Sequence record: NZ_CP017043.1 | Length of the DNA stretch: 64,000 nt | Direction: 5' to 3' (one strand) | Origin: a plasmid | Shown here: positions 57,639 through 59,553 of the stretch, piece by piece | Layout of the letters: each line of letters opens with the position of its first letter | Position numbering within the stretch: position 1 is the first letter of the stretch | Made by a program: the position numbers and the translations under genes | The notes under the pieces: model-generated | What the model was told of the DNA's origin: nothing | Databases searched by the model: none | Seen by the model: only the letters and a program-made list of their open reading frames with translations

Positions 57639-58001
57639 ATGAAGAATATTCTACGGTACAAGGAATACATCGGATCTGTGGAGATCTCCGAGGCAGAGGG
57701 CTTCCTCTATGGCAGGGTTCTCGGCATACAGGAGAAAATCGACTATCAGGCAGTCAGAGCCGATGAGCTGGTCAAACATTTTCATCAAGCGGTTGATATG
57801 TACCTTGACCGATGCAGAAAAGACGGCGTTTCTCCGGAAATCCCCTACAAGGGCAGCTTCAATGTTCGCATTGCCCCTGCGCTGCATCGCAGACTTGCCG
57901 TCCATGCAGTGCAAAATGGCGTAAACCTCAACCGCCTGGTCGAGACGATCCTCGCCTCCTACGAGCCTCTCTATGCTCCGGAAAAGGACGTGTTATCATG
58001 A
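57639..58001 (+). CDS. HicB-family antitoxin-like protein (120 aa)
   Basis: YKEYIGSVEISEAEGFLYGRVLGIQEKIDYQA...YLDRCRKDGVSPEIPYKGSFNVRIAPALHRRLAVHAVQNGVNLNRLVETIL matches the HicB/DUF1902 plus RHH-like pattern. The TGA stop overlaps the ATG of the kinase. Confidence 0.6.
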   Translation: MKNILRYKEYIGSVEISEAEGFLYGRVLGIQEKIDYQAVRADELVKHFHQAVDMYLDRCRKDGVSPEIPYKGSFNVRIAPALHRRLAVHAVQNGVNLNRLVETILASYEPLYAPEKDVLS

Positions 58002-59152
58002 AGATTACGCTGATGAACAAAAACACGCCCCTCATGTCGCTTGACATCGACATCAAGACCAGCTACGTCAAAGAGATTTTGAAAATCCACAACGCAGAGC
58101 CCATGCCGATCTCCGTATACAGCGACGATGAGACAACGCTCGGCGAGAATTTTACGCAGTGGTGGAACGGCCGCAGCATTCCCGCCTCCAGGCGTCAGCT
58201 GCGCGAGCGGCTGCAGGAGCTGCATGTGTCGGCGATGGCAGAGATCATCAACAAATCCTTCGGTCTCAGTCTCTCCGATCAGTATTGGATCAAGCCGCTC
58301 GGAACGGACATTGCGTGGAAGGACATCAACTTCTTTACAAACGAGTTCTCCACGGACATGGGCGAGTTTCTCATTGACAACAGGTTCAACGGGGAGCTTG
58401 ATATGCACTCGCCCGACAACACCTCCGACGGCCTGATCCAGAAGAAATGGATCATCGAGGACGGAATCCGCTGCCTGATGAAGACAGGGACTCCCCCGTT
58501 TGTCCAGGAACCGTTCAACGAAGTGATCGGCTCGCGCATCCTTGCCTGTATGTCTGTCCCCTATGCAGCATATACACTGGCAGAGGACGATCAGAGGTTT
58601 TACAGCAAGTGCAGCAACTTCATTGACGAAGATCATGAGTATGTCTCTGCATACTATCTCTGCAAGTCCATGCCCCCCAAGGAGGGCATGGAAAAGGAAG
58701 AGCAGCTCAGGCAAGCGATGGAGCACCATCAGATACGCGACGGCGAAGTCTTTATTCAGCAAATGCTCTGCCTTGACTTCATCATTATGAATGTGGACAG
58801 GCATTGGGGAAACTTCGGCTTCATCCGCAACGTCAATACGCTGAAGGTTGAACGTCCTGCGCCGATCTTCGACAACGGGAACAGCCTCTGGTATGATATG
58901 GCGCATATTCCGGAGCACTTCGATCAGGCGAAGACCTTTCGGAAGAAGCATAGAACGCAGATCAAACTCGTAAGGGACTTCTCCGGCATCGACTTTGCTG
59001 CGCTGGAGAGTGTTCCGGCACAGGCGCAGGAGATTTTGCGGGCGAATCCGAATCTGCCGGGCGACCGCGCAGAAAAAATCGCGCAGCGCATACAGGAACG
59101 CATCCAGATGCTTGCGCGGATCAGGGAACAAAAGAGGGATTCTTTTGTATGA
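57998..59152 (+). CDS. HipA-like Ser/Thr kinase, full-length type (384 aa)
   Basis: NVDRHWGNFGF (catalytic loop) and IFDNGNSL (DxG/Mg-binding), with an N-terminal HipA-like subdomain. Confidence 0.7.
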   Translation: MKITLMNKNTPLMSLDIDIKTSYVKEILKIHNAEPMPISVYSDDETTLGENFTQWWNGRSIPASRRQLRERLQELHVSAMAEIINKSFGLSLSDQYWIKPLGTDIAWKDINFFTNEFSTDMGEFLIDNRFNGELDMHSPDNTSDGLIQKKWIIEDGIRCLMKTGTPPFVQEPFNEVIGSRILACMSVPYAAYTLAEDDQRFYSKCSNFIDEDHEYVSAYYLCKSMPPKEGMEKEEQLRQAMEHHQIRDGEVFIQQMLCLDFIIMNVDRHWGNFGFIRNVNTLKVERPAPIFDNGNSLWYDMAHIPEHFDQAKTFRKKHRTQIKLVRDFSGIDFAALESVPAQAQEILRANPNLPGDRAEKIAQRIQERIQMLARIREQKRDSFV

Positions 59153-59553
59153 TAAGGAGAGTGATTCATGTGGGAATCCTATCTTCACTAAACACTTGGA
59201 TTGACGAAGGTGCAAAGGAGCAAGAAAGAATTCGTATTGCAAGGCGTGAAGAAAAAAAGAAAAAAATCGACGAATTTGTCCATAAGGAGTATACTGGAAA
59301 AGTTTTTGGAACAAAGCCCTTAATGGACTTGTTTGGAACACACAACCTTGATGAAGCTTTCAAAGGGAACGCCCCCTTGCTTACAATGATGTTGGAGGAG
59401 ATATATCTAAATCAAAAACAAGTATCACGTATGCAAGAATTAGAAGGACGGTATGCGGAGCTCAAAGAACGCTATGATGAACTGAAAAAAGAGTATGATA
59501 AACAAAACGAGCTGATTGCAGAAATCGCCAAAAAATCTGCGCTAACAAGATAA
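59149..59553 (+). CDS. Hypothetical coiled-coil protein (134 aa), third gene of the kinase operon
   Basis: ATGA overlap with the kinase stop. K/E-rich helices. Confidence 0.45.
   Translation: MIRRVIHVGILSSLNTWIDEGAKEQERIRIARREEKKKKIDEFVHKEYTGKVFGTKPLMDLFGTHNLDEAFKGNAPLLTMMLEEIYLNQKQVSRMQELEGRYAELKERYDELKKEYDKQNELIAEIAKKSALTR

What the first reader, a model, noticed from the sequence alone, without database searches (positions are those of the whole stretch)
57639..59553. Three-gene HicB-like / HipA-like kinase / coiled-coil operon inserted between T4SS genes
A HicB-fold protein (normally the antitoxin of the HicA RNase) is translationally coupled (TGA/ATG overlap) to a full-length HipA-like kinase (NVDRHWGNFG; FDNGNS). 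The kinase is in turn coupled to a 134-aa helical protein. A HipA kinase with a HicB-type partner rather than the HTH HipB is an unusual toxin-antitoxin architecture. The operon interrupts the trbL and M23/virB6-like T4SS genes and shares their regulatory region.
Basis: partly seen in the sequence, partly recalled or inferred. Interest (0 to 1): 0.65.

Follow-up and report, generated by a model that had tools for sequence, protein, structure and literature searches.

The report
Optional kinase inside a hicB operon
A conjugative element of a gut or oral Firmicute carries a conserved two-gene operon (a HicB-type antitoxin-like DNA binder plus a small coiled-coil protein), and some copies, including this one, hold a HipA/CtkA-type protein kinase between the two genes; this is an unusual but untested toxin-antitoxin-like arrangement.

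Summary
The three genes are real and are conserved under purifying selection. hicB-like is 57639-58001. A 384-aa HipA-superfamily kinase is 57998-59152, with an ATGA overlap to hicB. The third gene starts at GTG 59170, so its product is 127 aa, not 134, and it is not overlap-coupled to the kinase.

The 120-aa protein is a true HicB-family member (Pfam, PHROG, predicted fold), and most of its relatives pair with HicA. The kinase has all the catalytic motifs and a full-length HipA-like fold. Its closest solved relative is CtkA of Helicobacter pylori, and it scores below Pfam's HipA_C threshold.

The main correction is that the operon is not an insertion. hicB plus the third gene (P3), with a conserved palindrome upstream, is a fixed part of this T4SS region across relatives. 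Only the kinase is optional. It was present in 7 loci and absent in 15, and the two kinds are interspersed by HicB identity. Among 80 loci of the wider kinase family, none has HicB nearby.

So a "HicB as the kinase's dedicated antitoxin" role is plausible but unproven. HicB's constant partner is P3. I class this as a new variant of Hip-type kinase modules, of moderate interest.

The parts
55538..57490 (-). Flanking T4SS gene: an M23 peptidase fused to a TrbL/VirB6-like membrane domain (650 aa from the ATG at 57490). It is transcribed divergently from hicB.
   Evidence: Pfam Peptidase_M23 3.6e-19 and TrbL 7.5e-08. Homologues are called at 631-661 aa.
57491..57638 (.). 148-nt divergent intergenic region shared by the M23-TrbL gene and hicB. 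It presumably carries both promoters. A candidate hicB promoter is -35 TTGCTT at 57589-57594, a 17-nt spacer, and -10 TAAAAT at 57612-57617. The hicB RBS is GGAGGTG.
   Evidence: Read from the sequence. The consensus scan found no site that passed its threshold here, so the promoter assignment is inference.
57575..57592 (.). Perfect palindrome GCAACTA-N4-TAGTTGC that overlaps the candidate -35 box. It is a candidate operator for the RHH domain of HicB.
   Evidence: the repeat finder pair I2. The core AACTAAATATAGTT is conserved in all 8 aligned loci, including kinase-less L096, L097 and L098, while the flanks diverge.
57639..58001 (+). hicB-like gene (120 aa): an N-terminal HicB-type domain (about residues 1-62) and a C-terminal ribbon-helix-helix domain (about 72-108).
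   Evidence: PF05534 1.1e-17. phrog_9151 2.7e-32. AF2 model pLDDT 84. Top Foldseek PDB hits are HicB structures 6g26, 6g1n, 4p7d, 2dsy and 6g1c. It aligns full-length with HicBs that pair with HicA.
57998..59152 (+). HipA/CtkA-superfamily Ser/Thr kinase (384 aa) with its own N-terminal subdomain (about 1-150) and a core kinase domain. Its start overlaps the hicB stop (ATGA).
   Evidence: HipA_C 1.5e-4, below the cut-off. CtkA 3akj at 1.3e-5 for the single sequence and 3.9e-15 for the profile; HipT at 8.5e-4. AF2 pLDDT 90.3; Foldseek CtkA 7e-10, and full-length HipA with TM 0.59-0.64.
58421..58444 (+). Gly-rich (P-loop-like) motif T142-S143-D144-G145-L-I-Q-K149. It has the HipA pattern S/T-x-x-G-x-x-x-K, so T142 or S143 is a candidate autophosphorylation site.
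   Evidence: G145 and K149 are invariant, and T142, S143 and D144 are at least 90% conserved, in 31 homologues. The match to HipA S150-K157 comes from my knowledge of HipA, not from a tool alignment.
58796..58813 (+). Catalytic loop D267-R-H269-W-G-N272.
   Evidence: Invariant N265, D267, R268, H269, N272, F273 and G274. Aligned to NFDRHNGNWG of CtkA and NEDMHLKNFS of HipT.
58871..58885 (+). Mg-binding motif D292-N-G294-N-S296.
   Evidence: Invariant P289, D292, G294 and S296. Aligned to APIFDCGS of CtkA and PAYDLLNS of HipT.
59170..59553 (+). P3: a 127-aa protein of a small unannotated family, with a basic N-terminal helix and a highly conserved C-terminal coiled-coil motif (HELEGRYAELKERYDELK). 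It is the constant downstream partner of hicB.
   Evidence: Homologues are 123-131 aa. Start and RBS comparison. Only coiled-coil noise in Pfam and PDB. Only 12 clusters at E<=1e-10 among 1.84 billion representatives.
59552..59596 (.). Strong hairpin terminator with a 19-bp stem. It is shared by the operon and the convergent TrbL gene.
   Evidence: Terminator scan.
59596..61290 (-). Flanking T4SS gene: TrbL/VirB6 homologue (564 aa), convergent with the operon.
   Evidence: Pfam TrbL 2e-16 and TIGR02783 1.1e-25.

Best explanation
A conjugative element, probably of a Selenomonadaceae host, carries a conserved accessory operon, hicB-P3, between two VirB6/TrbL-type T4SS genes. In some lineages, including this window, a HipA/CtkA-superfamily Ser/Thr kinase gene sits between hicB and P3.

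Proposed working, with each step marked as shown or inferred:
1. One transcript runs from the divergent 148-nt intergenic region to the terminator at 59552-59596. This is inferred from the sequence.
2. HicB dimerises through its RHH domain and binds the conserved palindrome GCAACTA-N4-TAGTTGC, which overlaps the candidate -35 box. This would repress the operon and possibly the divergent M23-TrbL gene. Conservation of the palindrome is shown. Binding is inferred.
3. The kinase is translated by coupling to hicB through the 4-nt overlap, so it is never made without HicB. The overlap and its conservation are shown. The consequence is inferred.
4. The N-terminal domain of HicB holds the kinase, and possibly P3, inactive. 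This is inferred by analogy with HicB-HicA.
5. When HicB supply stops, through loss of the element or stress or phage infection, the catalytically intact kinase phosphorylates an essential host protein and arrests growth. This is inferred by analogy with HipA, which targets GltX, and HipT, which targets TrpS. The result would be an addiction or abortive-defence module for the element, in which the kinase is a facultative, exchangeable toxin cassette.
For: - HicB identity is supported by sequence profiles and predicted fold.
- In a survey of relatives at 43-57% identity, 67 of 80 loci have hicA immediately upstream. HicB is therefore a bona fide antitoxin lineage.
- No hicA is present in this 64-kb window.
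- The kinase has an intact Gly-rich loop, catalytic loop and Mg-binding motif, invariant in 31 homologues, and a full-length HipA-like fold.
- The ATGA or GTGA overlap is conserved across lineages with dS above 1. dN/dS is about 0.1 for both genes.
- The kinase at this locus was always seen with hicB (7 of 7 loci).
- The palindrome is conserved in all relatives.
- hicB-P3 is retained in a decayed element that has lost the flanking T4SS genes (L190-L194). This is the behaviour expected of an addiction-type module.
- The nearest outgroup kinases have other small upstream genes (a 71-aa ORF in L003; DUF1828 in L099). In at least one homologue (P0076) an N-terminal HTH is fused in cis (Pfam), and about 10 of the 80 surveyed loci have 90-114-residue N-terminal extensions of the ORF that were not scanned. 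Partner swapping of this kind is typical of TA toxins.
- The kinase core matches the PADLOC defence-candidate model PDC-M03A at 6.9e-15.
Against: - hicB and hicB-P3 occur without the kinase in most sampled lineages: 15 loci in at least 6 lineages, at 79, 78, 70, 69 and 52% HicB identity.
- The HicB sequence shows no obvious kinase-specific signature. HicB therefore has a kinase-independent role.
- The wider kinase family has no recurrent neighbour and never has HicB nearby (0 of 80 loci). These kinases can apparently exist without a dedicated antitoxin.
- A recombination tract (58.2-60.0 kb) put an 83%-identical kinase behind a 98%-identical HicB in L002. This argues against tight pairwise co-adaptation.
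- No interaction, toxicity or DNA-binding data exist.
Confidence: 0.42

Rival explanations
1. The kinase is a cargo or effector and has no HicB neutralisation. HicB, with P3, is simply the local RHH transcription regulator of this T4SS region. The kinase is a passenger gene that borrows the operon for expression. It regulates itself through its N-subdomain and Gly-rich-loop autophosphorylation. It acts on donor or recipient physiology, or is exported by the T4SS as CtkA is by the Tfs3 system of the H. pylori ICE.
For: - The closest solved relative is CtkA. CtkA is encoded on a conjugative element and is a likely T4SS substrate that depends on its C-terminus (PMC5536186).
- This kinase lies among T4SS genes: VirB4, VirB9, VirB10, VirD4, TrbL and a relaxase are all in the window.
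- Its C-terminal helix carries a net positive charge (sequence).
- hicB-P3 is conserved without the kinase.
- The wider kinase family has no recurrent neighbour.
- The cassette is exchanged by recombination independently of hicB.
Against: - The start-stop overlap with an antitoxin-family gene is conserved.
- HipA-superfamily kinases are typically growth-inhibitory (established knowledge; PMC8262856).
- CtkA lacks the roughly 150-aa N-terminal domain present here.
- No secretion signal can be demonstrated from the sequence.
- The host is a commensal, and there is no evidence that this T4SS targets eukaryotic cells.
Confidence: 0.3
2. hicB-P3 is the real two-gene toxin-antitoxin-like pair, with P3 as an uncharacterised toxin or effector. 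The kinase is a secondary insertion into that pair. It may be a second toxin under the same antidote, or it may be unrelated to HicB at the protein level.
For: - hicB-P3 is the arrangement conserved across all lineages that have two or more genes, at 42-100% P3 identity.
- The gene order, with the antitoxin-like gene first, and the sizes (120 and 127 aa) fit type II modules.
- The pair is retained in a decayed element that lacks the T4SS genes.
- The P3 family is small and restricted to these elements.
Against: - P3 has no recognisable enzymatic or toxin domain, only a coiled coil.
- hicB also occurs alone, without P3, in L096 and L097.
- P3 diverges very fast (50-54% aa where neighbours are 82-100%). 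This is unusual for an enzyme toxin.
- No functional data exist.
Confidence: 0.2
3. The gene juxtaposition is fortuitous or decaying, with no joint function. The kinase would be a recent insertion on its way to being lost.
For: - The kinase distribution is patchy among close relatives.
- L105 shows a possible short remnant of the kinase 5' end after hicB. The evidence is weak, resting on about 15 matching bases.
Against: - The kinase is under strong purifying selection (dN/dS 0.07-0.17) across dS above 1, with the overlap preserved.
- All catalytic residues are intact.
- The arrangement is found in many metagenomes: 22 clusters at 80% identity or more.
Confidence: 0.05

Closest known systems
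HipBA / Hip kinase toxin-antitoxin families (HipA, HipT, HipE-M; Gerdes et al. 2021, PMC8262856)
   Same: - The kinase belongs to the same superfamily and shows the same motif types: a Gly-rich loop, the catalytic D-x-H-x-x-N and the Mg-binding D-x-G.
- It has a full-length fold with an N-subdomain, as in HipA.
- It lies in a small operon on a mobile element, preceded by a DNA-binding antitoxin-type gene.
   Different: - The partner is a HicB-RHH protein, not an Xre-HTH HipB, HipS, HipN, HipR or HipP. That paper describes no such organisation.
- The sequence is closer to CtkA than to HipA or HipT, and scores below the Pfam HipA_C gathering threshold.
- The partner also occurs without the kinase in sister elements.
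HicAB type II toxin-antitoxin system
   Same: - The 120-aa protein is a full-length member of the HicB family, with an N-terminal HicB fold and a C-terminal RHH.
- In the survey of its relatives at 43-57% identity, 67 of 80 loci have hicA immediately upstream.
   Different: - No HicA is present.
- The gene order is hicB first, followed by a kinase and/or P3.
- HicAB had been reported to occur strictly as a unique pair (PMC2701414).
CtkA (JHP0940) of the Helicobacter pylori tfs3 ICE
   Same: - It is the best solved-structure match by both sequence and fold.
- It is also a variably present accessory kinase on a conjugative element that encodes a T4SS.
   Different: - CtkA is 325 aa and lacks the roughly 150-aa N-terminal subdomain.
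- It has no HicB or P3 neighbours described.
- It acts on eukaryotic host cells.
- Identity to this kinase is only about 20%.
HipBST tripartite system
   Same: It also has three genes that include a DNA-binding protein and a Hip-type kinase.
   Different: - In HipBST the kinase lacks N-subdomain 1, which is supplied by HipS, and the gene order is B-S-T. Here the kinase carries its own N-subdomain.
- The third gene is downstream, is a coiled-coil protein, and is unrelated to HipS.
PDC-M03 (PADLOC phage-defence candidate)
   Same: The kinase core (residues 142-308) matches PDC-M03A models at 6.9e-15.
   Different: - Only the core matches.
- The full-length PDC-M03A-type kinase in this window is a different gene, 47655-48575 (6.3e-30).

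Membership tests
HicB antitoxin family (PF05534 / COG4226 type) | Sequence match to the family profile above the curated threshold | tested here: met
   PF05534 scores 64.1 bits against a cut-off of 21, E 1.1e-17. phrog_9151 'HicB-like antitoxin' matches at E 2.7e-32 over residues 1-106.
HicB antitoxin family (PF05534 / COG4226 type) | N-terminal HicB (partial RNase H-like) fold | tested here: met
   AF2 model pLDDT 84, with a four- to five-stranded sheet plus a long helix. The three best-ranked Foldseek PDB hits are HicB structures (6g26 with probability 0.99; 6g1n), and 4p7d, 2dsy and 6g1c_B (rmsd 2.2 A over 65 columns, TMt 0.62) rank lower among unrelated folds. E-values are weak (0.03-0.9) because the protein is small and has two domains.
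HicB antitoxin family (PF05534 / COG4226 type) | C-terminal DNA-binding domain (RHH or HTH) | tested here: met
   A strand-helix-helix segment, FNVRI / PALHRRLAVHAVQ / NLNRLVETIL. Weak matches to the omega repressor (E 0.15) and to an Arc-like repressor PHROG (E 0.017). A conserved palindrome lies upstream.
HicB antitoxin family (PF05534 / COG4226 type) | Adjacent hicA toxin gene | tested here: not met
   There is no HicA-like ORF next to hicB or anywhere in the 64-kb window. In contrast, 67 of 80 loci of related HicBs have hicA immediately upstream.
HicB antitoxin family (PF05534 / COG4226 type) | Neutralises its partner toxin by direct binding | not testable with these tools
   This needs co-expression or binding assays, or a complex prediction.
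HipA-family kinase toxin (HipBA-type module) | Pfam HipA_C match above the gathering score | tested here: not met
   21.9 bits against a cut-off of 30.5 (E 1.5e-4). Two more distant family members pass the cut-off (P0066 at 33.8 and P0077 at 32.8).
HipA-family kinase toxin (HipBA-type module) | HipA fold, including N-subdomain 1 plus the core kinase | tested here: met
   AF2 pLDDT 90.3. Foldseek against S. oneidensis and E. coli HipA gives TM(query) 0.59-0.64 over about 445 columns, E 4e-8 to 1e-6.
HipA-family kinase toxin (HipBA-type module) | Conserved Gly-rich loop, catalytic motif and Mg-binding motif | tested here: met
   T142-S-D-G145-x3-K149, D267-R-H269-x2-N272 and D292-x-G294 are invariant or at least 90% conserved in 31 homologues. 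The catalytic and Mg motifs align to CtkA and HipT. Equivalence of the Gly-rich loop to HipA S150-K157 is by pattern only.
HipA-family kinase toxin (HipBA-type module) | Adjacent Xre-HTH HipB (or HipS/HipN/HipR/HipP) partner | tested here: not met
   The upstream gene is HicB-RHH and the downstream gene is a coiled-coil protein with no family. No such organisation appears in PMC8262856.
HipA-family kinase toxin (HipBA-type module) | Kinase activity that causes growth arrest and is reversed by the partner | not testable with these tools
   This needs an experiment.
CtkA-like kinases of conjugative elements | Closest sequence and structure relationship to CtkA | tested here: met
   phmmer 1.3e-5, profile 3.9e-15, Foldseek 7e-10.
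CtkA-like kinases of conjugative elements | Short (about 300-325 aa) core-only architecture | tested here: not met
   This protein is 384 aa with an extra N-terminal domain of about 150 aa. CtkA aligns only to residues 169-305.
CtkA-like kinases of conjugative elements | T4SS-dependent export through a C-terminal signal | not testable with these tools
   Only the genomic context (a T4SS element) and a positively charged C-terminal helix can be noted.
HipBST tripartite system | Kinase that lacks N-subdomain 1, with a separate HipS protein resembling that subdomain | tested here: not met
   The kinase has its own N-subdomain. P3 gives no match beyond coiled-coil noise.
PDC-M03 defence candidate | Full-length match to the PDC-M03A profile | tested here: inconclusive
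   Only the core matches (residues 142-308; E 6.9e-15). The partner gene or genes of PDC-M03 were not examined.

The most novel reading that the evidence does not exclude
The kinase is a T4SS-delivered interbacterial effector, a bacterial-target counterpart of CtkA. It would be injected into recipient or competitor cells during conjugation. HicB would act in the donor as its immunity protein or chaperone as well as the operon repressor. P3 would act as an adaptor to the secretion machinery. Under this reading, a HicB lineage has left HicA and become the hub of a swappable effector cassette embedded in the VirB6 region of a conjugation system.
Probability: 0.12. Interest if true: 0.8.

Novelty: new variant of a known kind. 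Interest (0 to 1): 0.48.

Why it matters
If HicB does hold this kinase in check, it would be the first HicB-family antitoxin shown to control a non-HicA toxin. It would also be a new partner type for Hip/CtkA-superfamily kinases, and so would extend the known partner swapping among toxin-antitoxin families.

The sister elements, with and without the kinase, also form a natural experiment. They share the same hicB, the same operator and the same P3. That makes it straightforward to test what the kinase adds to a conjugative element: stability, phage defence, or an effect on recipients.

The wider kinase family is large, at more than 6,800 clusters. It is common in gut and oral Firmicutes, has no recurrent partner gene, and is functionally unstudied.

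Tried and rejected
- I searched PLSDB plasmids with the 5.7-kb locus (blastn) and found no match. With the kinase protein (tblastn) the hits were distant, at 35% identity or less. No annotated reference element was found.
- I looked for HicB or P3 near 80 GTDB loci of the kinase family and found none. Clustering all flanking ORFs gave no recurrent partner; the largest cluster covered 5 loci.
- I tested whether the alternative upstream genes of the nearest outgroup kinases are cryptic HicBs. These were DUF1828 in L099 and the 71-aa ORF in L003. hhalign gave no similarity, with probability below 1%.
- I looked for hicA in the window with phmmer against the six-frame translation and found nothing.
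- I tried to place P3 in a family through Pfam, NCBIfam, PADLOC, PHROGs, a PDB profile and 1.84 billion representatives. Only coiled-coil noise came back, and the family is small, with 12 clusters at E<=1e-10.
- The sigma-70 consensus scan found no promoter in the intergenic region. The promoter I propose is a hand reading with a weak -35 box.
- I looked for a deletion scar of the kinase in the kinase-less loci. L105 shows about 15 matching bases after hicB. This is suggestive only and was not used as evidence. I therefore could not decide between kinase gain and kinase loss.
- Twelve loci carry hicA-hicB next to a convergent kinase. They turned out to be one human-gut element (88-98% nt identity), and its kinase is only 29% identical. 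I rejected them as independent support for a HicB-kinase link.
- I could not predict a HicB-kinase or HicB-P3 complex, or the P3 structure.
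Full report
**Observation.** Three plus-strand ORFs occupy 57639-59553. They lie between two minus-strand TrbL/VirB6-family genes. One is an M23 peptidase-TrbL fusion at 55538-57490. The other is TrbL at 59596-61290.

The window as a whole is a conjugative element. It encodes:
- VirB4 (8870-11320);
- VirB9/CagX (19617-20747);
- VirB10/TrbI (18278-19594);
- two VirD4/TraG-type proteins;
- topoisomerase III;
- a tyrosine integrase;
- a MobA/MobL relaxase (43257-46235);
- a ParM-like protein.

Source names attached to homologues are 'uncultured Selenomonas sp.' and 'uncultured Mitsuokella sp.'. 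These point to a Selenomonadaceae (Negativicutes) host, which is an inference. Neither the locus nor the kinase has a close match among 72,556 PLSDB plasmids.

**Gene 1 (57639-58001, 120 aa).** This is a genuine HicB-family protein.
- It matches Pfam PF05534 at 1.1e-17 and PHROG 'HicB-like antitoxin' at 2.7e-32 over residues 1-106.
- It aligns full-length with 33 homologues.
- The AlphaFold model (pLDDT 84) has an N-terminal sheet plus a long helix, followed by a strand-helix-helix tail.
- The three best-ranked PDB fold matches are HicB antitoxins (6g26, 6g1n), and further HicB structures (4p7d, 2dsy, 6g1c) appear lower in the list. The E-values are weak, as expected for a small two-domain protein.
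- Relatives at 42-57% identity are canonical hicAB partners. In the survey, 67 of 80 loci had hicA immediately upstream.
- No hicA exists in this window.

**Gene 2 (57998-59152, 384 aa).** Its start overlaps the hicB stop as ATGA.
- The overlap is kept as ATGA or GTGA in L001, L002, L004 and L006.
- The protein is a HipA-superfamily kinase but is not a close HipA. HipA_C scores 21.9 bits, below the 30.5-bit gathering score.
- The best solved relative is CtkA of H. pylori, at 1.3e-5 for the single sequence and 3.9e-15 for the family profile. HipT follows at 8.5e-4.
- The AlphaFold model is confident (pLDDT 90.3).
- The kinase core superposes on CtkA (E 7e-10). The whole chain, including the roughly 150-aa N-terminal part, superposes on full-length HipA with TM 0.59-0.64.
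- In an alignment of 31 homologues down to 39% identity, three motifs are invariant or nearly so: the Gly-rich loop T142-S-D-G-x3-K149, the catalytic loop D267-R-H-x2-N272, and the Mg motif D292-x-G294. Two strongly conserved N-terminal motifs are also present, WWxGRSIPASR and GLSLSDQYW.
- The second refutation test, that catalytic residues would be missing, is therefore also not met.
- The family is large, with 6,824 clusters at E<=0.001.

**Gene 3 (P3).**
- The 134-aa ORF beginning at the ATG that overlaps the kinase stop is not the conserved form.
- Homologues are 123-131 aa.
- The homologous start is GTG 59170 (ATG in L002 and L004), 8 nt after the RBS AAGGAGAG. The spacer after the kinase stop is 17-35 nt.
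- P3 therefore has its own initiation site and is not overlap-coupled.
- P3 has a basic N-terminal helix, a variable middle, and an almost invariant C-terminal coiled-coil motif, HELEGRYAELKERYDELK.
- It belongs to no described family.
- It has only 12 related clusters at E<=1e-10 among 1.84 billion representatives.
- A 19-bp-stem terminator at 59552-59596 closes the operon and also serves the convergent TrbL gene.

**Comparative anatomy.** This changes the interpretation. Seven related loci have the same hicB-kinase-P3 arrangement at the same place (L001, L002, L004-L007, and the window). Many sister elements lack the kinase:

| Loci | Genes present | HicB identity to window |
|---|---|---|
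| L105 | hicB-P3 | 79% |
| L190-L194 | hicB-P3 | 78% |
| L106 | hicB-P3 | 70% |
| L185-L189 | hicB-P3 | 69% |
| L098 | hicB-P3 | 52% |
| L096, L097 | hicB alone | 52% |

- Kinase-bearing HicBs are at 98% and 75% identity, so presence and absence are interspersed.
- Across these elements, hicB diverges in step with the flanking T4SS proteins.
- hicB is therefore a backbone gene of this region, not an insertion.
- The palindrome GCAACTA-N4-TAGTTGC at 57575-57592 lies in the 148-nt divergent intergenic region. Its core is conserved in all eight aligned loci, including the kinase-less ones, while the flanks diverge. It is the obvious candidate operator for the RHH domain.
- In L190-L194, hicB-P3 persists although the neighbouring T4SS genes are gone.

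**The kinase family elsewhere.**
- I examined the 80 best of 527 genomic hits in one-genome-per-species GTDB contigs, at 35-42% identity.
- None has a HicB or P3 homologue within 4 kb.
- No other neighbour recurs in more than 5 loci.
- About one in eight has a 90-114-residue N-terminal extension of the longest ORF. In the one extended homologue that I scanned (P0076), the extension gives weak, sub-threshold HTH matches (HTH_59/HTH_17). The extensions in the surveyed loci themselves were not scanned.
- The nearest outgroups, at 46-54% identity, sit behind an unknown 71-aa gene (L003), behind a DUF1828 gene (L099), or behind nothing (L102). Neither small protein resembles HicB.

**Selection and exchange.**
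- dN/dS is 0.07-0.17 for the kinase and 0.08-0.18 for hicB at dS up to about 1.4. This is similar to the T4SS genes.
- P3 diverges much faster, at 50-54% aa identity where its neighbours are 82-100%.
- The window and L002 are about 100% identical except for a 1.8-kb tract at about 58.2-60.0 kb. The tract covers the kinase from about residue 80, P3, and the C-terminal part of TrbL.
- The kinase-P3 segment is therefore exchanged by recombination. It operates behind a hicB that did not co-diverge with it.

**Interpretation.**
- The anatomy is secure: a conserved hicB-P3 operon with a conserved operator, and a facultative, catalytically intact, translationally coupled Hip/CtkA-type kinase nested within it.
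- The function is inferred.
- I favour a toxin-antitoxin-like addiction or defence module (confidence about 0.4). In it, HicB represses the operon at the palindrome and holds the kinase, and perhaps P3, inactive.
- The reasons are that HicB comes from an antitoxin lineage, the coupling is conserved, Hip-type kinases are generally growth-inhibitory, and partner swapping is typical of such toxins.
- The kinase core also matches the PADLOC defence-candidate model PDC-M03A.
- The main rival (about 0.3) is that HicB and P3 merely regulate this region and the kinase is self-regulated cargo. The kinase might even be a T4SS substrate like CtkA, which is variably encoded on the tfs3 ICE and depends on that T4SS and on its own C-terminus.
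- A third reading (about 0.2) is that hicB-P3 is the true pair and the kinase is a later addition.
- The comparative data argue against HicB being a dedicated kinase antitoxin. They do not exclude that it neutralises the kinase when the kinase is present.

**Relation to what is known.**
- The Hip kinase classification lists HipB, HipS, HipN, HipR and resolvase-like partners, but no HicB (PMC8262856).
- A comparative survey stated that HicA-HicB 'occur strictly as unique pairs' (PMC2701414).
- The later HicA survey mentions solitary hicB genes but no kinase partner.
- NetFlax did not recover either family.
- I found no paper describing this pairing.
- I therefore rate it a new variant of a known kind, of moderate interest.

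Noticed in passing
window 46833-49112 (minus strand): A second, different Hip-type module lies about 10 kb away. It has a 306-aa short kinase at 47655-48575 (HipA_C 4.3e-12; full-length PADLOC PDC-M03A 6.3e-30; CtkA-like motifs NGDRHLDNWG and APVYDCGSS). A serine resolvase follows downstream at 46833-47438. The layout resembles the hipMP organisation of Gerdes et al. 2021. Two paralogous small ORFs lie upstream (48568-48807, 79 aa; 48867-49112, 81 aa), and the first overlaps the kinase start.
   Followed up: partly
L001 1-1639: In the 94%-identical sister element, this short-kinase module is duplicated in tandem: two copies of a 75-aa gene followed by a 304-306-aa HipA_C kinase.
   Followed up: no
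window 58200-60030 compared with L002: A 1.8-kb recombination tract (65-87% nt identity) sits within otherwise about 100% identical elements. It spans most of the kinase, P3 and the Gly/Ala-rich C-terminal part of TrbL. A second variable patch in TrbL (60240-61130) separates the window from L001.
   Followed up: partly
L139, L141, L142, L147, L149-L151, L153, L156-L159 (for example L141 3750-5704): A human-gut element carries a canonical hicA-hicB pair followed about 55 nt later by a convergent kinase of the same broad family (29% identical to the window kinase). All 12 loci are one element (88-98% nt identity), so this counts as a single observation.
   Followed up: partly
L099 4571-6167: A 52%-identical relative of the kinase is preceded, 28 nt upstream, by a 133-aa DUF1828 protein and followed by a convergent PTS_2-RNA (KptA/Tpt1-like) gene. 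This is another candidate partner type for this kinase family.
   Followed up: no
L190-L194: These loci show a decayed version of the element. The hicB-P3 pair is kept next to an SSB gene and a Fic-domain gene, but the flanking TrbL, M23-TrbL and 264-aa genes are missing.
   Followed up: no
window 41278-42201 (minus strand) and L001 15788-21155: The element also carries other accessory genes: a pentapeptide-repeat protein (307 aa) in the window and, seen in sister locus L001, a Fic-domain protein (257 aa) and a roughly 2,400-aa methylase/SNF2-helicase fusion next to the SLT gene.
   Followed up: no
window 8870-32835 versus 54639-63841: The T4SS genes are split into two blocks more than 20 kb apart. 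VirB4, VirB9, VirB10 and VirD4 lie at 8.8-32.8 kb. The two TrbL/VirB6-type genes and SLT lie at 55-64 kb. The integrase, topoisomerase, relaxase and partition genes lie between them.
   Followed up: no
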